IMG/VR virus record: IMGVR_UViG_3300025723_000142
Location: 1 to 27,000 of that record
From: a virus
Taxonomy: Duplodnaviria > Caudoviricetes
Reading direction: 5' to 3' (one strand)
DNA length: 27,000 bases
A program made the translations under genes and the position numbers. Shown one piece after another: positions 3,066-23,628 of this stretch (the stretch's first letter is position 1; the number at the start of each line of letters is the position of its first letter). The notes beneath the pieces were generated by a model that worked only from the letters and a program-made list of their open reading frames with translations, was not told the DNA's origin and made no database searches.

Positions 3066-4421
3066 CTAAGCCAAGTTGACGTTAGTGGTACCGGATTCAC
3101 CCAGGTCAACGCCAGGGGTGTAGTAGGCGTTCGTGATGTCACTGTTGAGCAGCGAAGCCGACTCAATGCGAACAATCGAAGCCTGACGGAAGATGCTGTA
3201 CGCACCGAGCCAGTACCAACCCAGCGGGACGTAGCGGCGCAGACGGTCAGTGATGGGACCGGGAACGACGTGCGGGTAAGCACCGTTTCCGTCAATCATC
3301 GAGTACGCCTTGGCAAGAGCCTGGCGACCGAGAATCATCGTACCGTAAACGTTCACACCCGAAGTCGTGGGCGAGGTGGTCGTAACCGTACCAGTGGTGA
3401 CGCTACCCGTGGCGCTGGTCACAACAAAGTTGAACGCAGGCGTAGGAACAGCGGCAGTACCCGAACCAACCGAGATGGTCGTGATGCCGGTGACGGTGAT
3501 GGTACCGACGACGGTAGCACCCGAAGTCACGAGCGTCGAACCAACCTGAGGCGCGTTACCAGTGTAGGTACCCTGGCCAACGGTGCCAGTGGCCGACGAG
3601 GCGGCGATGGCGGTCGTTACGGTGTAGGTACCGGCAGTGGCGGAAGCACCAGCACCAGCGAAGATAGGCGCACGAGGCGTCTCAATCCAACGGACACCTT
3701 CGAACGCACCCAACTCACCAGTCCAGATTTCACCTGGCTGAGCGTACACGTGAGGCGCACGCCAACCCTGAATGTTGGAACCAGCGACGGACTCACCCTG
3801 AAGGTCAGCCACAATGTCTGGGTGGACGTAACCCACGTACATACCACCAAAGGTAGGAACGTTCTGCGAGCGCAGACGCGCACGAGCGACACGAATGTCA
3901 AGGGCAGAGATGGTGTTGGAGGCAGCCACAGCCGAGCGAGCCGTAGGCGCGCTCAGAGCGGTCGAGCCAAGACCCGAAGCGTACTGTACGTTGGTACCGG
4001 AGTCCAAGGCAGCACGAGCGATCGTGTCAATCGACACACCAGCGTTGTAACCAACGACGTTGGCAACTACGGGGTCAATGTCCACGAACGAGGTACCACG
4101 CAACTTGGCGGTGGTGAGTACGGCGTTACCGTATTCAGCCAGCGTCAGCGTGACCTGCGAGTCAGACAAGGCAACGGTCGCCACGTCGCTCGACTCGGAC
4201 AGGGCCGAGGAAGCGATGGGAAGGTCGTTGACAATGGTGAACGTCACAGACGAACCAGGCATCGACTGAGCAGTCGGCTGGACGTCGGCGGCGGCGTCAA
4301 AGTACAGTTCAGGACGGAGGGCGAAGTACGCCAGTCGGTCGTAGGCTGCCTTTGAGAAGTCAAGGGTAGACTGACCCGTGTAAGCGTCAGTACCCGCTAC
4401 GTTGCCAAATTCATTGGCCAT
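3066..4421 (-). CDS. Major capsid protein (N4-gp56-like family, HK97 fold) with Thr-rich insertion
   Basis: Motifs TLTLAEYGN, YVGYVHPD, GELGAFEGVRWIE, GPITDRLRRYVPLGWY. Located downstream of a scaffold-like gene. Confidence 0.9.
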   Translation of the reverse strand: MANEFGNVAGTDAYTGQSTLDFSKAAYDRLAYFALRPELYFDAAADVQPTAQSMPGSSVTFTIVNDLPIASSALSESSDVATVALSDSQVTLTLAEYGNAVLTTAKLRGTSFVDIDPVVANVVGYNAGVSIDTIARAALDSGTNVQYASGLGSTALSAPTARSAVAASNTISALDIRVARARLRSQNVPTFGGMYVGYVHPDIVADLQGESVAGSNIQGWRAPHVYAQPGEIWTGELGAFEGVRWIETPRAPIFAGAGASATAGTYTVTTAIAASSATGTVGQGTYTGNAPQVGSTLVTSGATVVGTITVTGITTISVGSGTAAVPTPAFNFVVTSATGSVTTGTVTTTSPTTSGVNVYGTMILGRQALAKAYSMIDGNGAYPHVVPGPITDRLRRYVPLGWYWLGAYSIFRQASIVRIESASLLNSDITNAYYTPGVDLGESGTTNVNLA

Positions 4422-4935: not shown

Positions 4936-5087
4936 GCAATCGCTCCTTGCGGGTACGCACTTTGCCAGAGGGTAACAAAGCGGATAAGTTGTAAAACTGC
5001 ACTAGGTACGCATCGGGAATGTGCTGTTCCCAAATGGGGTTGGTGGTCAGCGCGCCTGCGGCCAAACAGGGCCAACTACCTAGAAAC

Positions 5088-5117
5088 ATTGTACAGTGCG
5101 CATAACGTAATGTTACG
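5088..5117 (-). promoter_or_regulatory. Putative late promoter CGTAAC-N18-TACAAT for scaffold/capsid
   Basis: Intergenic -10 TACAAT (5093-5088) with CGTAAC (5117-5112). The same arrangement occurs at 17711-17739 and 18180-18208. Confidence 0.6.
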
Positions 5118-5120
5118 CTA

Positions 5121-6587
5121 CTAAGTTCGCGCGGAACCTATACCCATGACACCCTTAGCGTTCTCGGCGTAACCGCCACCCTTTTCAAACGGTGCGGCCT
5201 TAGCCTGTTCTGCGCGAGCGACCTCGGTTTGTGCGGCGACTTGGTTGATGCCACCGAAGCCAGCGAGTTGCGAAGCGATAAGCGTTTTGGTGTCAACGGT
5301 AGGCGCAGCCAATCCAGGCAACGACTTGGTAAGGGCGACGTCACGACTGGCACCGAGGAGGCTACCTTCGATTTGAGTAACGCCGTAGCCGAGTGCCTGA
5401 TTGCCTGCGGTGCTGGCGAGTCGAGCCATGTCTGCAAGCTGACTGCCCATGTTGCGCCCCACGCCACCCAAACCGACACGACCGGCGTAGTCTTGGATTT
5501 CGGCAGAGGCGACCTGACGTTGCATCTCTGGCAGACCCTCGACCGGCTTACGGCCTGGCAACTTGCCGGTAGCAAGATATCCCTTGATATCGTTTTCGTT
5601 GATGCCAAACTCACGTTGCAGGATTGCCTTGGTACCCGCGTCAGCGTTCTGCACTGCGCTGTAAATGTCCTGCACACGCTGTTGGTATTCAACGGGGGAA
5701 ACGTTCCCGTTCAGTAGTTTGCCGACGTCCTGCTTGTTGGGCGCTGGAACGCCGTACTGCGTTGCCGTGTCACGGATACGCTGGGTGTACTGCTGGTAGG
5801 CGGATTCGGTCATGTAGACATTGACGCTGTTGGGGTTCTTTTCAAGGCTGGCGTTGTAAGCAGCAAGACCTGGGAATGCATTGTCGTAAGCCTGCTTGAA
5901 TTCCTTTTGCGCTTCAGATCCGAGTGACGAGGGCAAGTTGCCGCGGATAATCTCGACCAACTCACGGGTGTTGGTGACATTGTTGCGCGGGTCAGTAATA
6001 ATCTTGTAGACCTTGTTAGCCTCGCTTGCCAGTCCCCAGTCCTGCAAGTAAGACTGGATTACACCGTAGGCGCTTTCAATGGCGCTGGCGCTGGTCTTGC
6101 TAGTTCCAGCGGTGACAGGTCCACTGACCGTCGTGCTGGGCGTGATGGTAGGCGTTACGGGCGTTTTAGGCTTTTTAGTTGTGACTTCAACTGTTGGGAC
6201 TGTGTAGTTGCCTAGGTTGTACTTCGAGATGTTGAGGTTGGTAGTTACTGCCGAGTAGTACTTGGTAGCGTTTTTTCCGTTGGGGTCAAAGCCAGCAGGG
6301 AACAGAGAGGTGATAAGCCCTGTTTTTTGTTCGGTGGTGTAAGGGGAGGTTTGAATTGCCTCATACAATTCCTTACCCGTTACCGGAGCGTAAGGCGCTT
6401 GGGACAATCCAGCTTTTGCTGGTGGGTAGTAAGTGAGTTTTGACCCAGCAGGCAAACCTAACCGGCTAGCAATGCTGGCAGGGATAACCATAGGCGGTGC
6501 AGTGTTGGCTGGCTTTATAACAATAGTTGGCAAACCTGTTGAGCCAGTTGCTCCTACCGAGCCGACGTCACCAAAGACATTACTCAT
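5121..6587 (-). CDS. Hypothetical virion-associated protein (488 aa)
   Basis: Long ORF in the structural operon with a P/T-rich N-terminus and helical C-terminus. GGAGG RBS, TAATG overlap. Confidence 0.8.
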   Translation of the reverse strand: MSNVFGDVGSVGATGSTGLPTIVIKPANTAPPMVIPASIASRLGLPAGSKLTYYPPAKAGLSQAPYAPVTGKELYEAIQTSPYTTEQKTGLITSLFPAGFDPNGKNATKYYSAVTTNLNISKYNLGNYTVPTVEVTTKKPKTPVTPTITPSTTVSGPVTAGTSKTSASAIESAYGVIQSYLQDWGLASEANKVYKIITDPRNNVTNTRELVEIIRGNLPSSLGSEAQKEFKQAYDNAFPGLAAYNASLEKNPNSVNVYMTESAYQQYTQRIRDTATQYGVPAPNKQDVGKLLNGNVSPVEYQQRVQDIYSAVQNADAGTKAILQREFGINENDIKGYLATGKLPGRKPVEGLPEMQRQVASAEIQDYAGRVGLGGVGRNMGSQLADMARLASTAGNQALGYGVTQIEGSLLGASRDVALTKSLPGLAAPTVDTKTLIASQLAGFGGINQVAAQTEVARAEQAKAAPFEKGGGYAENAKGVMGIGSART

Positions 6588-7092: not shown

Positions 7093-10000
7093 CTACGCGT
7101 TCGCGGTCGGGGCTTTAGCCAGGGTGTTTAGTAGACGGGCGATTTTGGAAGCAGCAGGATTAGCGGCCGCTTTCTCCATGACGGCATACAGGCTTTGCTT
7201 CAGGTCCCACTTCTGGGTGCCACTGGTTGCGTTGATTTCGGCAATGTAAGCGTTGTAAATCTTGTACGCCTCGTTCATATTGTTTACGTCGTCCTTGCTC
7301 AACAGACCCTTAGAGATTGTCTCTTGCTGCATCTTGGGGTCGCTAACAAACTGACCGAGTTGCTGAACAGCGGCGATTTGGTGTTGCTTTGAAACAGATG
7401 TTATGAGTGGGCTAGCGTTGCTTTCCCAAATTGGATTTACAAATTTACCGAAGTCTTTGGTTGCCGCATCAAGAGCTTTCTTGCCTTGGTAACTAATGTT
7501 GTTGCGAGGGTCGTTGGGACCAAAGTAGCCACCGCCACCAGGCGCACCCGAACCATACGATTTGTAGAACGTTGGCTCCAAGTACTCGTAGTACCACTGA
7601 TCGCCCATGGTGATAAGCGTTGCCTTCATGTACTCATCCGGCGTATCAGCCCTGCGCAGTTGCATACTGACCTGCGATTGGTACGCCGCAGGCACGTACT
7701 TGCCTTGGTTGTCAACCAACAAAGCGGCAAGGAATGGGATGCCATTCTCACCAATAAGGTTTGGAGCGTTGTCGTGCCACTTCATAAAGTCAGCAGTCTG
7801 ACCAAATGGACCGTATGGACTTTGCGACGTCGACACGGTGTCAAGGAAGTTTTGTGGGAACTTGAGCGCAAACTCAGACACCGCACTGCTGTAGCCAATG
7901 GGCGAGCCATCGGGGAGTTTCTGCTTGAGAATCTGGTTGAACTCATTTGATTTAGAGAAACGCTCTTGCAACGACGTCGACACCGGCAGGGCGAACATGG
8001 TTAGCAGTTTGCCCATGTACAAACCAAGTGCAGCAACCTGCATTTCGTCTGCGAATTTCTGCCTGTTCTTTTCTCCGATTCTTGGGCTACCAAAATGAAT
8101 CATAAGCATTTCGTCGGCGTACAGGTTGGCGTCAAGGTGCTTTTGTTCGGCAGACGCAAACGTAGCCTTGCCGTACTTGTCGTAGTATTCCTTGATTAGT
8201 TGCGAGCGGAAATCATCCATCTTGCTGTGCATGGCTTTGATTTGCGCTTGCAACACAGGAGCGACGGTCATGCCGTTACCGGCTGCTCGTTCCCCTACAG
8301 CGAGACCTTCTTGGAAAAGGTCACGGTAAAACGCCGAAGGGAGAAGGTCGGAGAACATACTAGTTTTTGAACCAACCGGGCCAAGAGTAGCTTCCAAGAA
8401 TTTGCTGTACGGTTTTGGATCAAACAGACCTGTCTCACCAAGCAACTTCTCCGCAATGCTGACGAACGGACCGGCTGGTGGCCGTATCATTTCTTCCAAG
8501 CCAGCCATGCCAGTTTGGTAGCCGGTGAGGATAACGCTGTTGAGCGAGCTGAGGCTACCGGAGTAGTCAAACATCATGCCGCTAATGTTTGGCCCAAGGT
8601 TGAAGATGTTGGACATAAAGCCAGGCAGGTACTCGGTACCGGGAATGGCGATAACCGGACTCTGACCATTCTGTGAGTGTGAGTGCAGGTAGTCCGTGGC
8701 ATGGAGGGAAAACTTGAGGAACTCGGTAAACGCCTGTGGGTTTTCTTCCAGCATGCGGAACGCTCGACGGTACGCCTGATTCTTGGCGAACCAGAATGGT
8801 GAATAGATACGAGCGTTCTGTTCAAACGCAAAGCGGTCAGCAGGATTGTGAACATACTTAGCCATTTGGATAAATGAATTTTCCATGGCCTTGTTAATTG
8901 CTTGGTCCTCGGTGATGATGCCACGAGCAACCTTTTCGCGCAACGCTTCCATCTCAATGTGGAAGCCAAGCAGGAATGTAGGTTCACGGCTGACCCAACC
9001 AAGGAACTTGCCAAAGGTCTTGTCAAGGATGTAGTGGTTAGCGGCGTTGGGCGCTTTCAATAAAGTGCTAGCACCTGCGCCAATCAATTTTGCGCCGGGG
9101 ATACGCATGGCGACTTCCATAAGTTTGTTGAACTCACGGACACCCTTGGTCTGCCACGGGAACTTTACGGGTTGGCGATCGATAAGGTTTTTGGGCGCAC
9201 CGTCAAGCGAGGCGTACTGCTTTACCAATGCCGCAGGCCCCTTGATTTGCCCGCTAATAGCCTGGTCGAGAAGGTCATTGTGGATGACCCACTTGCCTTC
9301 CTTGTTTACACCAGAGAAGATGCTGAGTACGTCATACGCCGTTGTTTTAGCCCAGTCCTCCATTGGGCTACCCGTTGTAAGTTCAGGGCTTGCAATAATT
9401 CGGTTTGATGCAACGAATGGCGCAAGTTCTGAATCGGACAACGCTTGCTTACGAGGCAAGTCTAAGTTTGTCAAATCTTTTAGAATTTGCTCACGTTCAT
9501 CGTTGGTGAATACATTGCCGCGAGAACTAGTAATTTTCCGCAGGTCCTTGGCAACTTCTAACAACTTCTGGTCACTGTGAACCTTACGCATGTTGTTGCC
9601 CAAGGCTGTGACAATGTTTTCTCCGTTTGCGCGTCCAAACTTGTCGCTGGCGTACAACTTCGACGTCATGGGATTGCCCTTGTCGTCGACGCCGTAAATG
9701 GTTTCAGCAGATGCACCGGAGATAGAGTCGGAATTGTACAACTGTGCGCTGGAGTGGCCAATGTCAGGGACAGCGCCACCCGTGAGTTGCAAAACAGTCT
9801 GAAAGTCGTCCAGCATGCGGTAAAAGCGATCGCCAGTCATGGCTTCAAGAATTCCACGCTGAGTACCAGTAAGCGCACCGGCAAGGAATCGCCCGGAGAA
9901 CTTGGTACCGCCGTGTAGTAGTTCAGCCGCATCCAGCACAAGGCGCTTGATGACAGTCGCTTCAGGTACCTTTTTTATTCCCTCTGCGGTCTTTACAATG

Positions 10001-12972
10001 CCTTCTTGCAATGGCGCGTACTTGAGCATACGCTTGCCGATGGAACGGGTAAGGCTGGCTTCGATAAAGTCAGTGCTACCAAAGCGCAGGAGGTTTGGAA
10101 TAAACTCTGCTCCGGCGATACGTTCAATGTACCCACCCGTTGACAGCATGAGTGGAATCAGGGCGTGGCTAAGAAGTCGGTTTAAGCCGTCAACGGCAAG
10201 GTTGCCCCAGTGAAGGTATGAGCCACCTGTGCGACCCAGTTGCTTCTCTAGTTGGGCATCAATGGCTTCTCGAACGCTCTTTTGCAGTTTGAGCTTTTCG
10301 TCAATCTTGATGCCAAAGAAATCAACGAAGTCATTGAGGTCCGACATATTGATTGGCAACGATTGCACGCGCGTGAACAGATGACGTTCAATATCTTCAA
10401 ACGCCTTGAGTTGCCCTTCTAGCCTTGCAATCTGTTGGCCTGCATTTGGCGTAGCGCGCAATTTGTAAAATTCAGAAATAACCTTGTCAGTTTCTCGGAA
10501 TACTTGGCGAGAACCCATGACAAACTTTTCAAAGTCATTCATGCCAGGCATTGTGCGGACACGAGCGAAAATGTCGGTGTAGACGCCCTGGGCATTCTTG
10601 TAGCCGTAAACAAGATTGCTAGAGAATTGGCTACCGGCGAAACTGCGGAGGCTACGAGTGACTGTGTTTGCGGCTGTTTTTTCAATGCCGACCAAACGAG
10701 CATTGCGGTACTGAGCCATAGCGGAATAGGCTTCTTCGTCCAAGTAGCGCAGACGGTTTCCTTCGCCAACAACTTCAGGGCCAAGGTGCTTGACTAATGC
10801 ACTCATCTTTCGGACAATGCCAGAAAGAACTTGTGGGTCAATGAACTTACCCTGCGAGATGTGCGTGTCACCGTGACCAAAAAACCCAGTGACGGTCCTG
10901 TCGTCTACAAGCGCCTTGAGAGAATACGCTTCGCCAAATTCACCGTTGACGTAAATACCTGCGCGGCCACCACCACCAGCGTCGTACAACTGCTGCACCA
11001 ATTCGCTAATTGTTTGACGAAGTTCGGTGTGGACAGCGGTGTAGGCGGGGGAATTGGTTGCCTTGGCGATTGACTGGTCAAGCATTGACGAAGTGAGATT
11101 GTTTAGAGCGTGTTGGAAATCTTGCGGGTTTGGCGTGTGCGTGAGCGCGTCACCCATGGCGTCGATCTCAGTACGCGAGAACTGACCTGACATTTGCATC
11201 ATGGCTTGGATGGCGGGGATGGCGTTCTTGTCGCCCATGCGGAAGCTGTAATTCTTGATGTTCGGCATGCCCTTAGCTGCTTCGCCTGCTTCGCTGTACC
11301 AAGGTGCTTCGGTGAGGTTTGATGCGGCCTTACGACGTACCCAAAGTGCTACTTTTTTGGGAACGCTTTTCTCTGCCGCTTCCATGGCAGTGCGCGTGGC
11401 AATGTCAATGCCGTCTTTCTTCAGTGCGCGCTGAGCGCCAGAAAGCGTGGCGTAATCTTTCAGTGCAGCAGCAATAGTGCGCCAAGCCTTGCGCGTAGGC
11501 AATACGTTGCGCGTGAAGTAAGCACCGTCAGCGACGTCGGCAAATACTTGAATAACTTTTTCTGGAGTCTTGGCGTCGGCAAGACGATTGATAAAACGAT
11601 CAACAACTTCAGATGGTCCTACAAGGTCGCGACGCAAAGTTTTGCGAATGGCGACAGCATCGGAGTTGGCAATGAAATCAATCATTCGTGCGCTACGAGA
11701 GGTGGTCCCTGCAACTCGAACGACATCAGCGCCACTCTCAACGCCAAGGCCCTTCCACCAACGGCCAAGCAAACCACCCAAACCTTCTGCGGTGTTGGCT
11801 TTTTCTAAGGTTCCCAAACCCGCTGTAACGGGGTCGGAACTAATAGTTGCGCCAAAGTCAACTGCACCGGAAAGCAATGAATACGGTGCGGTGCCTGGTT
11901 CGATACCAAACGCCTGAGCGAAACCCTGACCGGCAGAGATGCTTTGCTTGCGGCCAAACGCGTCGACGGGGTGTCCGTCCGCTACCGCTTCCCATAGCGC
12001 CTTTGCTTTGGGGTCAGACTGCACCGCCGCCTCGGTCATGTAATAGAGAGCTTGCAGTTGCATACTGCGGTTTAGTGCGTCAACGCCCTTGAACGCTTTT
12101 AGACCAACGCCAGGTACCCACTTGGCGGTGCCTTGAAATACCTTTACCGCATTCTTGAACGACTTAGGTGCGCCCGACAAACGTGCTTCGTCGGCCACCT
12201 TGGAGTCTGCCTGGGCTGTCTCGCTGAACTGTCGGCGCACCTGACGCTGGCGAATTGCCATGGCACGAGCAAGGTCGTCGTCGGTTGCTTTACCTGCGGC
12301 GGTACGCGCTTCAATGCTCGACAAGTTAGCGGCGTCTATTTTTTCTGCGGTGCCACCAATAAGTGCTTCTTCGCCAAAACGTGATGCCAGAATAAGTGGC
12401 GTTATGCGACCAAGCGCGTAGGGAACCCCATGACGTGCAGCGTCGGAACTAAAGAACGACACCATCTGAGATGCCTGCTTTAGACCAAAGTAATTATCTG
12501 GAGTAGGCACTTGTGCAGCAAGACCAGAGCCTAGATTCTTTACCGTTGTAAACGCGTCGTTCAAATTGGAATACATTTGACCAAGACCGTTTGCCTTTCC
12601 ACGCGAGCCGACAAAACCAAGTGTGCCAACTTCGCCAACAGTGGTTGCGGTACGGTTGAGAAAACTTGCAGCGCCCTTAGCCGTGTCAGAAACAGTTTGA
12701 GCCGCACCATCAGCAAGACTAGTTACATCGTGCCACCAGCCACCAGAATTCTTACTTGAGTTTGCTTCGTCGTAAATTGAAGTTTTTACATTGTCAACAA
12801 GATTGTTGTAATTGGTAAGCATCCCCATGCCGTGTGCGTCGACGCCGCTTGCGGAGCCAATGGCGTGAAGTGTTGACGGGTCTGACGAAAGGAAGGGGTT
12901 TGCCTTGAGTGCGGTGGCAACTTGATCTTCGTATGAATTCAGTTCTTTTTGTGTGGCGAACTCTTCAGCCAT
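7093..12972 (-). CDS. Very large virion protein (1959 aa), probable internal/ejection protein
   Basis: Uninterrupted 5.9-kb ORF between portal and scaffold, A/G-rich and helical. Function is inferred from size and position only. Confidence 0.75.
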   Translation of the reverse strand: MAEEFATQKELNSYEDQVATALKANPFLSSDPSTLHAIGSASGVDAHGMGMLTNYNNLVDNVKTSIYDEANSSKNSGGWWHDVTSLADGAAQTVSDTAKGAASFLNRTATTVGEVGTLGFVGSRGKANGLGQMYSNLNDAFTTVKNLGSGLAAQVPTPDNYFGLKQASQMVSFFSSDAARHGVPYALGRITPLILASRFGEEALIGGTAEKIDAANLSSIEARTAAGKATDDDLARAMAIRQRQVRRQFSETAQADSKVADEARLSGAPKSFKNAVKVFQGTAKWVPGVGLKAFKGVDALNRSMQLQALYYMTEAAVQSDPKAKALWEAVADGHPVDAFGRKQSISAGQGFAQAFGIEPGTAPYSLLSGAVDFGATISSDPVTAGLGTLEKANTAEGLGGLLGRWWKGLGVESGADVVRVAGTTSRSARMIDFIANSDAVAIRKTLRRDLVGPSEVVDRFINRLADAKTPEKVIQVFADVADGAYFTRNVLPTRKAWRTIAAALKDYATLSGAQRALKKDGIDIATRTAMEAAEKSVPKKVALWVRRKAASNLTEAPWYSEAGEAAKGMPNIKNYSFRMGDKNAIPAIQAMMQMSGQFSRTEIDAMGDALTHTPNPQDFQHALNNLTSSMLDQSIAKATNSPAYTAVHTELRQTISELVQQLYDAGGGGRAGIYVNGEFGEAYSLKALVDDRTVTGFFGHGDTHISQGKFIDPQVLSGIVRKMSALVKHLGPEVVGEGNRLRYLDEEAYSAMAQYRNARLVGIEKTAANTVTRSLRSFAGSQFSSNLVYGYKNAQGVYTDIFARVRTMPGMNDFEKFVMGSRQVFRETDKVISEFYKLRATPNAGQQIARLEGQLKAFEDIERHLFTRVQSLPINMSDLNDFVDFFGIKIDEKLKLQKSVREAIDAQLEKQLGRTGGSYLHWGNLAVDGLNRLLSHALIPLMLSTGGYIERIAGAEFIPNLLRFGSTDFIEASLTRSIGKRMLKYAPLQEGIVKTAEGIKKVPEATVIKRLVLDAAELLHGGTKFSGRFLAGALTGTQRGILEAMTGDRFYRMLDDFQTVLQLTGGAVPDIGHSSAQLYNSDSISGASAETIYGVDDKGNPMTSKLYASDKFGRANGENIVTALGNNMRKVHSDQKLLEVAKDLRKITSSRGNVFTNDEREQILKDLTNLDLPRKQALSDSELAPFVASNRIIASPELTTGSPMEDWAKTTAYDVLSIFSGVNKEGKWVIHNDLLDQAISGQIKGPAALVKQYASLDGAPKNLIDRQPVKFPWQTKGVREFNKLMEVAMRIPGAKLIGAGASTLLKAPNAANHYILDKTFGKFLGWVSREPTFLLGFHIEMEALREKVARGIITEDQAINKAMENSFIQMAKYVHNPADRFAFEQNARIYSPFWFAKNQAYRRAFRMLEENPQAFTEFLKFSLHATDYLHSHSQNGQSPVIAIPGTEYLPGFMSNIFNLGPNISGMMFDYSGSLSSLNSVILTGYQTGMAGLEEMIRPPAGPFVSIAEKLLGETGLFDPKPYSKFLEATLGPVGSKTSMFSDLLPSAFYRDLFQEGLAVGERAAGNGMTVAPVLQAQIKAMHSKMDDFRSQLIKEYYDKYGKATFASAEQKHLDANLYADEMLMIHFGSPRIGEKNRQKFADEMQVAALGLYMGKLLTMFALPVSTSLQERFSKSNEFNQILKQKLPDGSPIGYSSAVSEFALKFPQNFLDTVSTSQSPYGPFGQTADFMKWHDNAPNLIGENGIPFLAALLVDNQGKYVPAAYQSQVSMQLRRADTPDEYMKATLITMGDQWYYEYLEPTFYKSYGSGAPGGGGYFGPNDPRNNISYQGKKALDAATKDFGKFVNPIWESNASPLITSVSKQHQIAAVQQLGQFVSDPKMQQETISKGLLSKDDVNNMNEAYKIYNAYIAEINATSGTQKWDLKQSLYAVMEKAAANPAASKIARLLNTLAKAPTANA

Positions 12973-19051: not shown

Positions 19052-19080
19052 TTGCAATTCTCCCCTAGCGCCTGTAGTGT
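19052..19080 (+). promoter_or_regulatory. SigA-type early promoter TTGCAA-N17-TAGTGT
   Basis: Directly upstream of the first plus-strand gene. The same motif recurs at 19994 and 20672. Confidence 0.65.
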
Positions 19081-19119: not shown

Positions 19120-19515
19120 ATGAACTACACCGAAACTGAAACTATCCAAGGGACGTATCTGTCGCTTGGCGAAAAAATTGTGATCCGCGATAACGCGGTG
19201 GAGATTCTCTACACCACCACCACCACGGGCGCGACTGTAATTAGCGACGACACCGCGAACGCGCTCGAAAATGCAATTGGCGGGTTCAATGCGCCATGGG
19301 CAATTACCGCGGACAACTACGCCGAGTGGCTTTCAATCTACAACGCAAAAAACTACCTAATTCACTACTACACCACCTACGGTAACATTAATCACGACGA
19401 GAGCGATTTAGACACCGCGCGTACCATATCGGATTACAATTATGAAGTTCACGCCATCATTGCCGAGTTCACGCGCACCACGTGCAACGCAATTCTAGCG
19501 GGACGGGGTTACTAA
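19120..19515 (+). CDS. Hypothetical early protein
   Basis: Start moved to ATG 19120 (AAAGGGAG RBS). 131 aa. Confidence 0.75.
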   Translation: MNYTETETIQGTYLSLGEKIVIRDNAVEILYTTTTTGATVISDDTANALENAIGGFNAPWAITADNYAEWLSIYNAKNYLIHYYTTYGNINHDESDLDTARTISDYNYEVHAIIAEFTRTTCNAILAGRGY

Positions 19516-19718
19516 TGGCGCGCGCAACCTGCCAAGGGTGTTGGCACCCCGCACCCCGCGGCACTAAGTTAGGCACCTGGAGCGGGTTCGCAACATTCGA
19601 TGCAACCGCGGCTAGCCCTGCACCTAAGTTTAGGCATTGGCGGCTATGCGCACTATGCGCCCGCGAATTAGGCGTAACTCTACGCTACGCCGCGCCCATT
19701 GTGGAGGTGACACAATGA
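19515..19718 (+). CDS. Small protein with CxxC...CxxC
   Basis: MARATCQGCW...CALCAREL. TAATG and ATGA coupling. Confidence 0.6.
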   Translation: MARATCQGCWHPAPRGTKLGTWSGFATFDATAASPAPKFRHWRLCALCARELGVTLRYAAPIVEVTQ

Positions 19719-19933
19719 CGCGCCGCCAACGCCGCGAGGCTCGCCGCCTACGCGCCTACACTATCGGACTAGGACTAGGACTAATGGTGATGAGCGCGGC
19801 ACTAATCGCGCTACTTATCTACCTAGTGCCAGGTGAGTTCACTTCAACCGTGATCGGGTGCTACATAAGCGCGGGCGTGATGTTTGCGGGATCCGCTTAC
19901 GCGGTAGTGATGGCGGCTCGCGAAGAACTTTAG
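19715..19933 (+). CDS. Small two-TM membrane protein
   Basis: GGAGG RBS before ATG 19715. Basic N-terminus followed by two hydrophobic helices. Confidence 0.7.
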   Translation: MTRRQRREARRLRAYTIGLGLGLMVMSAALIALLIYLVPGEFTSTVIGCYISAGVMFAGSAYAVVMAAREEL

Positions 19934-19940
19934 CAAGGTG

Positions 19941-19992
19941 GCGCGGTGCCGATAAGGCGGCCAACGTAGGTTCGATACCTAACCGCGCGCTA
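19941..19992 (+). ncRNA. tRNA-like (anticodon-less) element, copy 1
   Basis: GCGCGGT | GCCG-ATAAGG-CGGC | CAACG | TAGG-TTCGATA-CCTA | ACCGCGC | GCTA. Confidence 0.75.
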
Positions 19993-19993
19993 C

Positions 19994-20022
19994 TTGCACT
20001 AGTCGCTACTGGCGGCTATTGT
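19994..20022 (+). promoter_or_regulatory. Promoter candidate TTGCAC-N17-TATTGT within a hairpin
   Basis: Matches the 19052 promoter pattern. The spacer is self-complementary (TAGTCGC...GCGGCTA). Confidence 0.55.
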
Positions 20023-20061
20023 AGGTAATAGGGTAGTAACTAAATGATAAGGGATAAAAAA

Positions 20062-20613
20062 ATGTCGGCATATTTAGTAAGTAGTGACACACTAGACCTG
20101 TTGTCTAGTGTTGCGGCGTATTGGCGTGAAAGTCCACACAGTGGCGGCTTAACTGTACGTGTACCGCTAGACACCGCGCCGCTAACTAACCTGGAAGAAA
20201 CTAACGGTGCAAACATTGGCAGTGACGCGCCATGGAGTACAGAAACTATGCACTACACCTGGAGTTATGGCGGCGCGACGTTTAGCGACGTAGGCGCTGA
20301 GCTGTACGCGGGTAATGTCTCCAGTCTTGCGGCGCGCTACTCGGACTATGAAAGCATGATTAACTACACTTGGACTCCTAGCGGTGGTGCTATTTTGCCG
20401 GACTCGGTTAGCGTTGGCGACGTTTTAGGCGCGTTGCGTTGCTACGAATACCAGAGTTGCGAGGTTAGCGGGTGGGAAAATACGTTCACCTATGCATTAG
20501 TGCGCGCTATTGAACGTAAGGTAATCGGCTATTACTCCACAGGATGGGACTACGCGCGCCCGGCAAACTCGGCTAAGGTTATTAGCCTTTACGATATGGC
20601 TAAGGGCCGCTAA
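20062..20613 (+). CDS. Hypothetical phage protein (MSAYLVS...CYEYQSCE motif)
   Basis: Start moved to ATG 20062 (AAGGGA RBS). The motif pattern resembles a recurrent uncharacterised phage family, from recall only. Confidence 0.75.
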   Translation: MSAYLVSSDTLDLLSSVAAYWRESPHSGGLTVRVPLDTAPLTNLEETNGANIGSDAPWSTETMHYTWSYGGATFSDVGAELYAGNVSSLAARYSDYESMINYTWTPSGGAILPDSVSVGDVLGALRCYEYQSCEVSGWENTFTYALVRAIERKVIGYYSTGWDYARPANSAKVISLYDMAKGR

Positions 20614-20618
20614 CGGGA

Positions 20619-20670
20619 GTTAGGCGCGGGTACGGCCGCCTTAGTAGGTTCGACACCTAGCCTAACACTA
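20619..20670 (+). ncRNA. tRNA-like (anticodon-less) element, copy 2
   Basis: GTTAGGC | GCGG-GTACGG-CCGC | CTTAG | TAGG-TTCGACA-CCTA | GCCTAAC | ACTA. Confidence 0.75.
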
Positions 20671-20671
20671 C

Positions 20672-20700
20672 TTGCAATAGCGCCTATTAGGTGCTAGTGT
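20672..20700 (+). promoter_or_regulatory. Promoter candidate TTGCAA-N17-TAGTGT within a hairpin
   Basis: Hexamers are identical to the 19052 promoter. Hairpin TAGCGCCT-ATT-AGGTGCTA. Confidence 0.6.
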
Positions 20701-20748
20701 TAGTAACGGTAGCATGGGGCTACCGGCAATAAGTGAAAGTGACAACTA

Positions 20749-21348
20749 ATGAAATATGAAATTGTATTTAGTCGGCAGTGTTTCGCTGACTTGGCTAGCG
20801 TGGGTAACTTCGCTAGCGGCGATAGCGCGCGGCCGCTGCTGACTGGCGTATTCGTTCGCCAGAATGAGCGCGGCGAGATTACCGCTACCGCTACCGATAG
20901 CTACAAGCTGGCAGTGATCACGCGCGAAGCTGAAGAATTGACGGGAGAGTTCGCGCCCGTCATTATCTCGGCTGACGTGCTGATTCGCGCCGCTAAGGCC
21001 TTTAAAAAGGCCTTTAAGGTTACGGTGTCGGTCGAAGGTGACAACGTGAAGATTAGCGCGCCGCAATTCGATGACGTGTACGGGTGCCGCGTTATTGACG
21101 GTAAGTACCCTGACGTAGATAGTCTCATCCCTAACGCTGGCCGGATTAATGAGTTTGACGGGATTACTCTCAACCCCTGGTTTCTCGCTGACGTGGTGAA
21201 GCTGGCACCCTGGGCCGAGACGCCTAAGAATGGTCGCGGCCGTGAAGGAATGACTATCGCGACAATGGTGGACGCATTGCGCCCTATCCGTATCGAGAGT
21301 AGCGACGCTCGTACCGTGGTCGCCCTGATGCCCATTAGGCGCAACTAA
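20749..21348 (+). CDS. DNA polymerase III beta (sliding clamp, DnaN)-like protein, two domains only
   Basis: DSARPLLTGV, ATDSYKLA, IDGKYPDVDSLIP, LNPWFLAD and C-terminal LMPIR correspond to DnaN central and C-terminal domain motifs. 199 aa. Confidence 0.85.
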   Translation: MKYEIVFSRQCFADLASVGNFASGDSARPLLTGVFVRQNERGEITATATDSYKLAVITREAEELTGEFAPVIISADVLIRAAKAFKKAFKVTVSVEGDNVKISAPQFDDVYGCRVIDGKYPDVDSLIPNAGRINEFDGITLNPWFLADVVKLAPWAETPKNGRGREGMTIATMVDALRPIRIESSDARTVVALMPIRRN

Positions 21349-21641
21349 TGGCGCGGCACCTGAGTTTCATCAGTACCGCGGGCCACGGGTACTTGGTAAT
21401 TCGCGGCGATAGGGCTAATGCTCTATCGTGCGCGACCGGCTACGACTACACTAGCCGCCGCGATGACGTTGTCTACTTGGAGGAGGACCTTAGCGCAACC
21501 CTCTACGTTCGCAACTTCATGACTGAGGATGAGCGCGCCGATATGCCATTCTTCCACCGGGATGAGCTGCCAACGGGCCTAACGCGTATCACTGAGCCGG
21601 GCGCCATTGGTGCCGCGTACATGAAGGGTAAGGGCTACTAA
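21348..21641 (+). CDS. Hypothetical protein (GHGYL...YLEED motif)
   Basis: 97 aa with TAATG coupling at both ends. Confidence 0.7.
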   Translation: MARHLSFISTAGHGYLVIRGDRANALSCATGYDYTSRRDDVVYLEEDLSATLYVRNFMTEDERADMPFFHRDELPTGLTRITEPGAIGAAYMKGKGY

Positions 21642-21820
21642 TGACTACACCTAACATTGTCGGCCGCGATACTGATGGTACTCCATGGGTAACGGTGCGT
21701 TACGTCATTGACGTGCAAGTAATTGCCGAGACTGAAAGTGAAGCTATCTACTTCGCTGATTTGGCTCTAAGGGACAACTTGGACGGTGCCGAGGGGACGC
21801 CGCTGGAAGTAGTGCAGTAA
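21641..21820 (+). CDS. 59-aa acidic hypothetical protein
   Basis: Not in the track. MTTPNIVGRDTDGTPWVTVRYVIDVQVIAETESEAIYFADLALRDNLDGAEGTPLEVVQ; TAATG overlap, AAGGG RBS. Confidence 0.65.
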   Translation: MTTPNIVGRDTDGTPWVTVRYVIDVQVIAETESEAIYFADLALRDNLDGAEGTPLEVVQ

Positions 21821-21826
21821 TGAGCG

Positions 21827-21877
21827 ACTACCGGCCGGGATGGCGGCTAATCGGGTTCGATCCCCGCGGTAGTGCTG
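21827..21877 (+). ncRNA. tRNA-like (anticodon-less) element, copy 3
   Basis: ACTACCG | GCCG-GGATGG-CGGC | TAAT | CGGG-TTCGATC-CCCG | CGGTAGT | GCTG. Confidence 0.75.
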
Positions 21878-21909
21878 CCGGCAAATTGCCGGTGCGAAGG
21901 GAAGAAAAA

Positions 21910-22095
21910 ATGAAAGTAGTTAGAACTTTATTTTACGGGGGCGCGCTGTATGCCGCGTATTCGTTCGCGCGGTTCATCGAGCGTACCGATACCGCGGCGC
22001 TGATTAAAGGTAATAGCTTGGCTGTATGCACGTTCGTTGCCGTAGGCGCGGCGTTGTGCATGTTGATTAGCCTTATGACGGGAGGCATGGAATGA
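21910..22095 (+). CDS. Small membrane protein (61 aa)
   Basis: Start moved to ATG 21910 (AAGGGA RBS). Two hydrophobic segments. Confidence 0.7.
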   Translation: MKVVRTLFYGGALYAAYSFARFIERTDTAALIKGNSLAVCTFVAVGAALCMLISLMTGGME

Positions 22096-22283
22096 ACGCG
22101 TTAGAGATGGCTAAGAATATCGGCCGCGACGGTCACGTGCTGGAGAATGGTCTTTCGTTCATTGTCACCATTAGGGACGTGAGGAATGTCTACGGGAATG
22201 TTCGCTACCTGGTGACACCTAAGGCCGGTTATGGACAAACATGGGTGAACGCTACCCGTGTACGCGTATTGGAGAATAACTAA
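22092..22283 (+). CDS. Hypothetical protein (small beta-rich, SH3-like pattern)
   Basis: GGAGG RBS, ATGA overlap, 63 aa. Confidence 0.7.
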   Translation: MNALEMAKNIGRDGHVLENGLSFIVTIRDVRNVYGNVRYLVTPKAGYGQTWVNATRVRVLENN

Positions 22284-22504
22284 TGACTAAGGGACTAAAA
22301 AAGTGGGCTACGGAGAATGGAGAGTATTGCGGCTACACCTACCGCGGCTACTACATTGTGAAGTCTGACGGAGCTGGGTGGGATGTAAGCCTTATGGGTG
22401 AGGATGGCTATTTTCGCTACCAATTCTGCCGCGACACCTTGCCTGAAGTGACGTCAAAAATTGACAAAGTTCGCACTTGCTGGACACTATCGGAGGATAT
22501 CTAA
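22283..22504 (+). CDS. Hypothetical protein
   Basis: GGAG RBS, TAATG coupling, 73 aa. Confidence 0.7.
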   Translation: MTKGLKKWATENGEYCGYTYRGYYIVKSDGAGWDVSLMGEDGYFRYQFCRDTLPEVTSKIDKVRTCWTLSEDI

Positions 22505-22758
22505 TGAATGGCTACAACCGTTACCAAGACGACAACTACCAAGACGCGCTGGAGGATGCGCGTGCTGAAGTAGAAGCTCAGGAGCAGCAGGAAAAGGCCG
22601 CGGGATGGGTAATTGACGGCCGCGAACTGTGCCGCGACTGTGCGATCGACACTAAGGCCAACGTAACGCCGGGTGCCGAGGCCGTGGTCTACGAGGATTA
22701 TGAGCTGGCACCTGGTGAGTTCTACTACACGTGCGACGTGTGCGGGAAGTTCTTTTAG
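22504..22758 (+). CDS. Acidic protein with CxxC...CxxC
   Basis: Start moved to ATG 22504 (GGAGG RBS, TAATG). Motifs LCRDC...CDVCG. Confidence 0.7.
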   Translation: MNGYNRYQDDNYQDALEDARAEVEAQEQQEKAAGWVIDGRELCRDCAIDTKANVTPGAEAVVYEDYELAPGEFYYTCDVCGKFF

Positions 22759-22759
22759 T

Positions 22760-23086
22760 ATGCGCTCGCCACTATTCAACCTCATCCCTACAACGCTCAA
22801 CGTGTACCGCGCCGAGGATACCGCTGAACTTCGTTCGCTTTACTACAACATAGAAGATCACCTAACAATGGAGGCCGCAATGGCTGATGCAGCAACCCGT
22901 CCAACTCAGCAGTCAAGTGCTGAGACAATGCGCCAGATTATGATGATCAAGCTTTCGGTCATTACAGAATTGGCTCTCGAACATGCGGCTAACGCTCCCC
23001 TCGCATGGAACGTGGGCGATTGGGAGGCGTTTCTTGGCGCGCTTGAGATGGTCAAGAGCATGGCAGACGCCTACAAAGATTTCTAA
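22760..23086 (+). CDS. Hypothetical helical protein
   Basis: Start moved to ATG 22760, 1 nt after the upstream stop. Last gene of the plus-strand cluster. Confidence 0.6.
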   Translation: MRSPLFNLIPTTLNVYRAEDTAELRSLYYNIEDHLTMEAAMADAATRPTQQSSAETMRQIMMIKLSVITELALEHAANAPLAWNVGDWEAFLGALEMVKSMADAYKDF

Positions 23087-23244: not shown

Positions 23245-23628
23245 TCAATGCTCGCCGCGTACTCGCTTGCGATACTTGGCTACCCTGAGCTTCGCTACTG
23301 CGTTGTATGCGTCCAGACAAGGCTGGCATATGACGTGGTTAGGGTCTTTGAGCTTGCGACGTCGGTGCCAAGCGTGACCGCTTTCGGTGCCATGCTCCGG
23401 GGCCTTACGGTTCGGTGGTTCGTATCCGAGTGACGCGGCAACAATCCGTAATTCGTTATACGACAAACCGCCCCACACTCCCCATGCTTCCCGATATTCT
23501 AAGGCCCATTTGAGGCAATCGGATTTTATGGGGCAGGTAGCGCAGATGTCGCTAGCCTGTTGTGTGAGGCGGTCATTGAAGAAAAGGTCGGTCTTGCCAA
23601 TGCACTTGGCGAGCGACCAATCAGTCAA
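23245..23628 (-). CDS. whiB: WhiB-family transcription factor with C-terminal extension
   Basis: Four Cys (C...CATC...C), DLFF and GVWGG motifs. Confidence 0.93.
   Translation of the reverse strand: MTDWSLAKCIGKTDLFFNDRLTQQASDICATCPIKSDCLKWALEYREAWGVWGGLSYNELRIVAASLGYEPPNRKAPEHGTESGHAWHRRRKLKDPNHVICQPCLDAYNAVAKLRVAKYRKRVRGEH

What the first reader, a model, noticed from the sequence alone, without database searches (positions are those of the whole stretch)
19941..21877. Three anticodon-less mini-tRNA elements punctuate the early gene cluster
Seen: three intergenic 47-48-nt elements (19941-19988, 20619-20666, 21827-21873) start 7, 5 and 6 nt after a stop codon. All have the same fold: a 7-bp closing stem (GCGCGGT/ACCGCGC, GTTAGGC/GCCTAAC, ACTACCG/CGGTAGT), a 4-bp hairpin with a 6-nt loop ending GG (ATAAGG, GTACGG, GGATGG), a 4-5-nt linker, a 4-bp arm with GG-TTCGANN-CC, and then RCT. 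Stem sequences differ but pair perfectly, i.e. covariation within one genome. Known: the D-loop GG and T-loop UUCGA form the tRNA elbow, which RNase P, RNase Z, CCA-adding enzyme and T-loop modifying enzymes read; mascRNA and bacterial Y RNAs use such mimicry. There is no anticodon arm and no encoded CCA, and the stacked helix is 7+4 bp rather than 7+5. Inference: a phage tRNA-mimic system that directs processing of early polycistronic mRNA, protects mRNA 3' ends, or releases small decoys against tRNA-targeting defences. I do not recognise it as a described family.
Basis: partly seen in the sequence, partly recalled or inferred. Interest (0 to 1): 0.92.

Follow-up and report, generated by a model that had tools for sequence, protein, structure and literature searches.

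The report
Anticodon-less tRNA mimics between phage genes
Three 47-48-base elements predicted to fold like the top half of a tRNA sit just after stop codons in the likely early genes of a freshwater phage, recur in many related phages, and likely mark where the host's tRNA-trimming enzymes cut the long viral message and leave it with protected ends, though no cut has been measured.

Summary
In detail: three elements, with coordinates and pairing as described; 0 of 300 shuffled windows give one. They belong to a family of 65 distinct parsed copies in 27 phage records, up to seven per genome, on the sense strand of small-gene clusters. Stems covary at 14 of 16 pairs. D-loop AG goes with T-loop G55 (7 of 7) and GG with U55 (32 of 33), as expected for a tRNA elbow. 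New here: the tail is R-C-(U/G)-R with invariant C74, which CCA-less tRNA genes of actinophages also keep; base -1 rarely pairs with 73; a hairpin follows the tail in 40 of 40 copies; the helix is 11 or 12 bp. The host is likely actinobacterial (WhiB). Best reading: host RNase P processing sites, probably with later 3' release, that split the early message (0.55; inferred, no RNA data). No match to Rfam 15, ARAGORN or Ro60/Y RNA. This scan has noted the same kind of element on other DNA (43 notes, at least 38 genomes). Those notes cite minimal tRNA mimics (tLRNA); I could not read that paper, and its two Rfam models do not match here.

The parts
19941..19988 (+). Element 1: three-way junction (7-bp acceptor-like stem, D-like arm, T-like arm), 7 nt after stop TAG 19931-19933
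   Evidence: model R2 61.2 bits
19989..19992 (+). Tail of element 1 (R73 C74 U75 A76), in place of NCCA
19991..20027 (+). Hairpin directly after element 1, overlapping a promoter-like sequence
   Evidence: RNAfold -19.6 kcal/mol on the 40-mer
19994..20022 (+). Sigma-A-like promoter consensus (-35 at 19994, 17-nt spacer, -10 ending 20022); function untested
   Evidence: not reported by the stricter sigma-70 scan
20619..20666 (+). Element 2, 5 nt after stop TAA 20611-20613
   Evidence: R2 56.9 bits
20667..20670 (+). Tail of element 2 (A73 C74 U75 A76)
20669..20705 (+). Hairpin after element 2, overlapping a sigma-A-like promoter consensus at 20672-20700
21827..21873 (+). Element 3, 6 nt after stop TAA 21818-21820
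   Evidence: R2 49.4 bits
21874..21877 (+). Tail of element 3 (G73 C74 U75 G76)
21877..21893 (+). 7-bp hairpin after element 3, followed by a purine-rich leader and ATG 21910
19052..19080 (+). Sigma-A-like promoter consensus at the head of the + strand cluster, followed by a 5' hairpin; predicted source of read-through transcripts
19120..23086 (+). Cluster of 11 small genes divergent from the terminase/structural operon, inferred early; only 20749-21348 (beta-clamp-like) has a family hit
23245..23628 (-). WhiB gene: marker of an actinobacterial host (context, not part of the element)
   Evidence: PF02467, E 3.8e-15

Best explanation
These are conserved, anticodon-less tRNA mimics placed a few bases after stop codons in the likely early operon of a phage that likely infects Actinobacteria, and they likely act as processing signals that host RNase P would cut at their 5' end, splitting the long message into shorter units whose new 5' ends would be protected by structure. 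Shown by sequence and comparison: the three-way-junction pairing, loop-loop covariation, the R-C tail, the unpaired -1 base, the spacing from stop codons and the downstream hairpin with a purine-rich leader. Inferred: transcription through the element, formation of a tRNA elbow, and the RNase P cut at +1 anchored by R73/C74. Least certain: a second cut just 3' of the discriminator (RNase Z, or RNase E plus trimming). That cut would free a roughly 48-nt mini-tRNA and leave the downstream mRNA starting with the conserved hairpin.
For: (1) Stems covary: 96.7% of cells pair against 63.3% shuffled; 14 of 16 pairs change on both sides; slid controls give 33-45%. (2) Loop covariation: AG D-loops with G55 in 7 of 7, GG with U55 in 32 of 33, and C56 in 36 of 36 seven-base T loops. 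The AG/G55 copies fall into 3 sequence groups of 56% identity or less. (3) C74 in 40 of 40 and purine 73 in 40 of 40, C74 also in 25 of 25 in a second set. Real phage tRNA genes mostly lack CCA but keep C74: 22 of 22 in Immanuel3, 21 of 22 in FlowerPower and 18 of 18 in G058. A G74 substrate is cut more than 100-fold slower by B. subtilis RNase P (PMC1874595, passage). (4) Base -1 can pair with 73 in 0 of 40 copies against 14 expected, and in 2 of 25 in the second set. (5) The stem starts 5-15 nt after a stop in 39 of 40 and 6-18 nt after in 23 of 25, never closer. (6) A hairpin of at least 5 bp starts within 3 nt of position 75 in 40 of 40, against 16.7 shuffled (maximum 24) and 20 of 40 coding controls. 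(7) L287 holds a copy with canonical U8-A9 and D arm but no anticodon arm, z -3.16. (8) Precedents: t-elements cut by RNase P/Z at plant mitochondrial mRNA ends (PMC1920247, section 35); M. smegmatis YrlA, which mimics the D arm, T arm and acceptor stem, is cut by RNase P (PMC4201824, passages).
Against: There is no expression or cleavage evidence. The helix is 11 bp in 24 of 40 copies and 10 bp in one, against the fixed elbow-to-cut distance that RNase P measures; YrlA cleavage was tied to a 7-bp acceptor stem, and 17 of 40 copies have 6 bp. At least four copies have degenerate T loops (L135 at about 6072 and 6495, L161 5864, L153 3901). One copy (L153 3905) starts about 6 nt after a -10 box, so it would have no leader to cut on that transcript. 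Eight of 40 copies have a promoter consensus right behind them, which would make a processed 5' end partly redundant. Many close relatives lack the element: 18 of 23 complete terminase-WhiB intervals, and complete genomes G006, G015, G020, G027 and G043. The tail and some spacings were written into the search patterns, and A8 was fitted to the model. An RNase P cut alone would leave the upstream mRNA without a 3' hairpin.
Confidence: 0.55

Rival explanations
1. The element is never cut. It works in cis as a compact 5'-leader structure, either a roadblock to 5'-to-3' decay (RNase J, as viral xrRNAs do; recalled) or an elbow that binds the ribosome and helps initiation or re-initiation at the next gene.
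For: It always lies 27-84 nt before a start with a purine-rich leader (39 of 40). One copy begins at a predicted transcription start (L153). The 10-11-bp helices and degenerate T loops are tolerated. RNase P, the T-box and the L1 stalk read the same elbow motif (PMC4919913, passages).
Against: It does not explain the invariant C74 shared with CCA-less pre-tRNAs or the unpaired -1 base.
Confidence: 0.18
2. The main product is the released mini-tRNA, which acts in trans as a decoy for tRNA-binding or tRNA-cutting defence proteins, modification enzymes or uncharged-tRNA sensors.
For: Several divergent copies per genome (up to 7 in L135); the shape would be a CCA-adding-enzyme substrate if released (inference).
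Against: There is no anticodon arm for anticodon nucleases to attack. Copies are tied to gene junctions and never clustered as a small-RNA operon. The downstream hairpin and leader are conserved as part of the unit.
Confidence: 0.1
3. It is a transcription-control or phage-protein-binding RNA (terminator, pause or antitermination signal) whose likeness to tRNA is a relic of its origin.
For: It sits after stop codons, is followed by a hairpin, and in 8 of 40 copies precedes a promoter consensus, as a terminator would. Element-free relatives carry long perfect hairpins, some with U tracts, at gene junctions of the same region.
Against: Only 2 of 40 downstream hairpins have a U-rich tail; 32 of 40 have no promoter to restart transcription; tRNA-specific tail features are kept.
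Confidence: 0.08
4. It is mainly a DNA-level exchange cassette like the PeSLs of T4-type phages: repeated promoter/stem-loop units at which small genes are swapped by recombination.
For: In a related strain (run X24) the element-plus-leader blocks align with few changes (19937-20053: 2 differences; 21816-21917: 5) while the flanking genes are replaced or too diverged to align. The same block pattern holds between L135 and L161. PeSL concept: PMC4122927 (abstract only).
Against: Copies in one genome differ in their stems, which lowers recombination. G-U pairs occur 25 times and A-C never (partly built into the parser). Loop-loop covariation points to selection on RNA. Swapping can be a side effect.
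Confidence: 0.06
5. The elements are inert remnants of tRNA genes or attP sites.
For: A tRNA origin is likely (L287 intermediate), and many relatives do without the element.
Against: Compensatory changes across 45 clusters at 80% identity, fixed strand, fixed spacing from stop codons and the added hairpin. No integrase was found among the 32 window proteins scanned.
Confidence: 0.03

Closest known systems
t-elements of plant mitochondria (Forner et al. 2007, PMC1920247; abstract and section 35 read)
   Same: tRNA-like folds with the GGTTCRANYCC T-arm motif at mRNA boundaries, proposed and partly mapped as RNase P / RNase Z cutting signals.
   Different: Organellar degenerate tRNA sequences at single loci. 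Here a 43-52-nt multi-copy family in phages, with no anticodon arm, a D arm joined directly to the acceptor strand, and a fixed downstream hairpin. No ends are mapped here.
tLRNA-2 (DUF2693-FD, RF02926) and tLRNA-3 (salivarius-1, RF03030), minimal bacterial tRNA mimics; name taken from earlier scan notes, paper not seen
   Same: Similar size (models of 49 and 56 positions) and, by the notes, the same idea of a minimal tRNA mimic.
   Different: Neither model matches the elements in 5 of 5 genomes searched. Whether this family falls under that paper's wider class is not known to me.
YrlA-type bacterial Y RNAs (Chen et al. 2014, PMC4201824; passages read)
   Same: Mimic D arm, T arm and acceptor stem; found in phages; the M. 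smegmatis RNA is cut by RNase P and receives CCA.
   Different: YrlA is a larger RNA next to a Ro60 gene, and its acceptor-like stem is internal. Here the acceptor stem is open and embedded in mRNA, and no TROVE gene was found (0 of 5).
PeSLs of T4-type phages (PMC4122927, abstract read)
   Same: Repeated small intergenic cassettes in a hypervariable early region, some with a promoter, with gene exchange next to them.
   Different: PeSLs are terminator/promoter composites; these carry tRNA elbow and tail features, and only 8 of 40 have a promoter consensus.
Phage RNase P substrates: C4 antisense RNA of P1/P7 and M3 RNA (listed in PMC11143913, passage read); T7 early RNase III sites (recalled)
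   Same: Phage RNAs matured by host tRNA-processing or dsRNA-processing enzymes; T7 splits its early message into single-gene mRNAs.
   Different: C4 is a single antisense regulator (no Rfam match and no complementary target here). T7 uses RNase III hairpins, not tRNA mimics.

Membership tests
tRNA gene | Anticodon arm and cloverleaf | tested here: not met
   Linker of 1-6 nt between the D and T arms; ARAGORN finds none at default settings. At a relaxed threshold it mislabels some copies as tRNA.
tRNA gene | T loop and D-loop GG elbow residues | tested here: met
   C56 in 36 of 36, A58 in 34 of 36, D-loop GG or AG in 40 of 40, with covariation
t-element | tRNA-like fold with T-arm motif at an mRNA boundary | tested here: met
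t-element | Mapped RNA ends coincide with the element; cut by RNase P/Z | not testable with these tools
   No RNA holder listed
YrlA / bacterial Y RNA | Ro60 (TROVE) gene close by | tested here: not met
   PF05731 in 0 of 5 element-bearing records, 4 of them near complete; none among 32 window proteins. The window is an incomplete genome.
YrlA / bacterial Y RNA | Match to the Rfam Y RNA models | tested here: not met
   No such hit at E up to 10 in the window or 5 loci
YrlA / bacterial Y RNA | GNCGAAN Rsr-binding motif near the 5' end | not tested
   No motif search was run
DUF2693-FD (RF02926, tLRNA-2) | Covariance model score over 44.5 bits | tested here: not met
   0 of 5 genomes; the only hit is 11.1 bits at an unrelated place
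salivarius-1 (RF03030, tLRNA-3) | Covariance model score over 50 bits | tested here: not met
   0 of 5 genomes at E up to 1
tLRNA class as a whole | Definition given in the source paper | not testable with these tools
   Paper not retrieved; the supplement of PMC5737381 could not be read
PeSL | Promoter joined to a stem-loop | tested here: inconclusive
   Promoter consensus behind 8 of 40 copies, including window elements 1 and 2
PeSL | Intrinsic terminator part | tested here: not met
   U-rich tail in 2 of 40; no terminator called at the elements
PeSL | Gene exchange at the cassette | tested here: inconclusive
   Flanking genes replaced or diverged while cassettes are kept, in one related strain
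C4-type antisense RNA | Complementary targets elsewhere in the genome | tested here: not met
   Longest matches 10-11 nt, mostly to sister elements; window only
tmRNA tRNA-like domain | Tag reading frame, pseudoknots, CCA end | tested here: not met
   No tmRNA by ARAGORN or Rfam; the element is under 55 nt

The most novel reading that the evidence does not exclude
Phages have evolved their own tRNA-punctuation system. Host RNase P and a 3' enzyme excise each mimic, turning one early transcript into separately stabilised single-gene mRNAs, as in mitochondria. At the same time they release several sequence-diverse, CCA-accepting mini-tRNAs that tie up tRNA-reading host or defence proteins early in infection.
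Probability: 0.15. Interest if true: 0.9.

Novelty: new variant of a known kind. Interest (0 to 1): 0.64.

Why it matters
If the cut is real, a mitochondrial-style way of punctuating mRNA with tRNA shapes operates in bacteriophages, with a substrate smaller than any tRNA. The family is a natural mutagenesis series for what bacterial RNase P needs: 10-12-bp helices, A18-G55 elbows and a tail reduced to R-C. It would also offer a 50-nt portable processing and stabilising module for actinobacterial expression. The elements are missed by Rfam and default ARAGORN, and can be mis-called as tRNAs at relaxed settings.

Tried and rejected
Rfam: one chance hit in the window and five sub-threshold hits in 5 loci; three of these were Plastid-ycf2 on the opposite strand of elements at 21-24 bits against a cut-off of 65.7. 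First pattern scan: 8 of 8 hits were chance. A single-protein locus search with the clamp-like gene found nothing. Cultured phages: no match to the early region and only tRNA-arm or chance matches to the element. L244 and L211 have no cultured match, and L287 has only short matches to actinophage genes. In 4 cultured actinophages searched with R2 no hit exceeded 24.1 bits; the Immanuel3 cluster falls in its annotated tRNA array. Bacterial genomes: 0 hits with one pattern and 11 with another; at least six of these read as coding or chance by eye, and only L193 reaches 33 bits, with 2 broken acceptor pairs, so none was accepted. Stop-codon readthrough was rejected: an open in-frame path to the next start exists in 2 of 38. 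Antisense function was rejected. A virion RNA polymerase reading hairpin promoters was rejected for lack of evidence: the 1959-aa protein has no DxDGD motif, no PDB match and only LPD-type look-alikes. The test that elements replace promoters was inconclusive because the promoter regex was too narrow. Pairing of the 5' flank with R73/C74: 26 of 40 against 17 shuffled (maximum 29), suggestive only. No RNA holder was listed among 24 runs. Fremin 2023 (PMC10690425): passages describe only ARAGORN-overlapping tRNA-like candidates; six contig ids were not found, but 3 of its 6 supplementary files were not searched and three more are too large to read, so the family could be among its 10,006 candidates. 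PMC9569102 and PMC13191261 gave nothing relevant. Rows dropped before counts: from A8, L081, the L157 fragment and L153:4814; three copies that the parser could not handle (L157, L109 1782, L153 3901); four degenerate copies were added by eye; L135 5605 is mis-parsed and L159 4570 has no clean upstream stop. From A9 only hits in 13 chosen loci were parsed; the single-copy L203-type and hits under 26 bits were left out.
Full report
Context. The window is a 27-kb fragment of a tailed phage: terminase, portal and major head genes lie on the - strand, with SSB, RusA-like, DnaD-like and HNH genes at the right end. A cluster of 11 small + strand genes (19120-23086) runs divergently from the terminase; only the beta-clamp-like gene has a family hit. 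Calling this cluster early is an inference from its position, gene sizes and host-type promoter consensus sequences at 19052, 19994 and 20672. The runs that hold the region are freshwater metagenomes (23 of 24 rows). WhiB is encoded in the window and in 5 of 5 relatives tested, and the closest cultured terminases are from Streptomyces Beephvirinae at about 30% identity, so the host is likely actinobacterial.

Observation. The three elements are as described. A strict descriptor finds these three and nothing on the - strand, against 0 in 300 shuffles. Neither ARAGORN nor Rfam 15 recognises them. Single-sequence folding is weak support: z -1.5 to -2.3, and the junction is the minimum-energy fold only for element 1. 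Across the family it lies within 1 kcal/mol of the minimum in 24 of 40 copies. The case therefore rests on comparison.

Family. Eighty loci fetched by terminase similarity were scanned, with the window, by a descriptor that has no tail requirement. It gave 10 hits, all on the early-gene strand upstream of the terminase. Pattern scans and two covariance models extended the set. In the scan, 11 of 14 loci were true members; yields were much lower. The result is 40 distinct parsed copies from 17 records and 25 more from 10 records, forming 45 clusters at 80% identity. Carriers include phages whose terminases are only 23-42% identical to the window's and three without a WhiB hit (L244, L287, L211), so the host range may be wider. 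L135 has seven copies in its early cluster. In whole-record searches the hits at family-level scores lie within a few kb of each other. Distribution is patchy: 18 of 23 complete terminase-to-WhiB intervals of close relatives have none, and some of these carry long perfect hairpins at junctions instead. No convincing chromosomal copy was found in two scans of genome contigs.

Structure. On alignment A8 (43 distinct rows, including three non-family or partial rows, and fitted to the model), 96.7% of cells pair against 63.3% shuffled, 14 of 16 pairs change on both sides, and slid controls give 33-45%. R-scape was not available. The acceptor-like stem joins the D-like arm with no connector in 39 of 40 copies. 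The strongest independent signal is between the loops: all 7 copies whose D loop ends AG have G at T-loop position 55, whereas 32 of 33 GG copies have U (Fisher p 4e-7, uncorrected for kinship). The seven fall into three groups of 56% identity or less, and three of them have irregular T loops that I numbered by rule. That G18 contacts U55 and G19 pairs with C56 in tRNA is established knowledge; my search for a paper on the A18-G55 swap found none. L287 carries a copy with the canonical two-base connector and D arm but no anticodon arm, which suggests an origin by deletion from a tRNA.

Ends. The tail is R73 C74 (U/G)75 R76 in 40 of 40. It was part of later patterns, but the family hits of the tail-free scans show it too; one of these (L100 3454) does so once read with a 6-bp stem. 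It is never CCA. Real tRNA genes of actinophages look the same: Immanuel3 keeps C74 in 22 of 22 with full CCA in 4 and U75 in 11; FlowerPower keeps C74 in 21 of 22; provirus G058 keeps it in 18 of 18 with CCA in 3. RNase P RNA pairs with C74 and C75, and a G74 substrate is cut over 100-fold slower, while CCA-less precursors are still processed (PMC1874595, passages). RNase Z cuts CCA-less precursors after the discriminator and is present in M. tuberculosis (PMC10673834, passage). Base -1 cannot pair with 73 in 40 of 40 copies (14 pairings expected) and can in 2 of 25 in the second set. The stem starts 5-15 nt after a stop codon in 39 of 40, just clear of where a terminating ribosome would sit (inference). 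A hairpin begins within 3 nt of position 75 in 40 of 40 (shuffled mean 16.7; coding control 20 of 40), followed by a purine-rich leader and a start codon 27-84 nt on. In 8 of 40, window elements 1 and 2 among them, that hairpin contains a -35/-10 consensus, so it can form only on read-through RNA. Several primary-transcript starts predicted in the same phages also begin with a hairpin, but not all.

Mechanism. The unit is: stop codon, short spacer, tRNA top half, R-C tail, hairpin, ribosome-binding leader. The simplest reading is a processing signal. RNase P would bind the elbow and the R-C tail and cut at +1. The downstream message would then start with paired RNA, and if the mimic is later removed at its 3' side, the conserved hairpin becomes the new 5' end with at most 2-3 free bases. 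None of these steps is measured. Against it: 25 of 40 helices are shorter than 12 bp although RNase P measures a fixed elbow-to-cut distance (PMC4919913, passages); some T loops are degenerate; one copy starts at a predicted transcription start; and many relatives do without the element. An uncut cis-acting cap or translation aid is the main rival (0.18). Trans decoys, transcription control and PeSL-like exchange cassettes explain fewer features, although cassette-like behaviour is visible: in run X24 the element-plus-leader blocks are kept while neighbouring genes are replaced or diverged. Readthrough and antisense roles were tested and rejected.

Comparison and novelty. It works, by inference, like plant mitochondrial t-elements (PMC1920247) and shares its module with YrlA (PMC4201824), but it fails the Y RNA test (no TROVE). 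Ten literature searches (six aimed at tRNA-like or repeated phage elements) listed no paper describing this family; the library lacks most subscription papers, and unread supplements of PMC10690425 and PMC5737381 may bear on this. Earlier notes of this scan describe the same kind of element in other phages, actinophages and cyanophages among them (43 notes, at least 38 genomes). They are not independent evidence, and none matched this window by sequence. They name minimal bacterial tRNA mimics (tLRNA-2 and -3) as closest known. I have not seen that paper; its two Rfam models do not match these elements. I class the finding as a new variant of a known kind: real, conserved, absent from Rfam, directly testable, with its function unproven. 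Interest 0.64.

Noticed in passing
L081 9236-9285 (+), also L082 981-1030: Even smaller tRNA-like element: 7-bp stem, 10-nt loop in place of both D and anticodon arms, T arm, GCTA tail; on the terminase strand, upstream of it.
   Followed up: partly
L079 5898-5953 (+); L083 about 5890-5956 (+): tRNA-like elements upstream of the terminase with an RCTA tail. The L079 one seems to keep an anticodon-like 7-nt loop but no D arm; not called by ARAGORN.
   Followed up: partly
L304 about 800-835 and L305 about 880-920 (Streptomyces phages Immanuel3 and FlowerPower, just after tRNA-Pro): Unannotated T-arm/minihelix-like hairpin inside the tRNA arrays of cultured phages; the FlowerPower copy is followed closely by ACCA. 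A possible laboratory handle on minimal mimics.
   Followed up: no
L203 3975-4036 and L205, L208, L216, L218-L221, L231: Single-copy, longer relative (5-bp D arm, 8-nt loop, purine-rich linker, ACTA tail) in AT-richer phages; L203's record has WhiB. 35-37 bits with R2.
   Followed up: partly
L064 about 4340-4375, 5060-5095 and 5760-5790 (-); L080; L095: Repeated palindromic motif with a GTGACAC/GAGACAC core between the hairpin and the ribosome-binding site of early genes, with or without a tRNA mimic upstream; possible operator.
   Followed up: no
window 19994-20022 and 20672-20700; L013, L043, L095, L100: The 17-nt promoter spacers are themselves near-palindromic, so they may double as repressor sites on DNA.
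   Followed up: no
window 7093-12972 (-): 1959-aa virion-region protein with no Pfam, PHROG or PDB hit; Atlas look-alikes are large polyvalent-type viral proteins.
   Followed up: partly
window 20749-21348 (+): Stand-alone 199-aa beta-clamp-like protein in the early cluster, usually with an element on one or both sides in relatives.
   Followed up: partly
L193 3990-4043 (+): Intergenic anticodon-less tRNA-like sequence (33 bits, imperfect acceptor stem) in an ICE-like region of a Rhodospirillum contig; status unclear.
   Followed up: partly
L087, L017, L031 early regions: Element-free close relatives carry very long perfect hairpins (15-22 bp) at gene junctions, possibly terminators or RNase III sites.
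   Followed up: no
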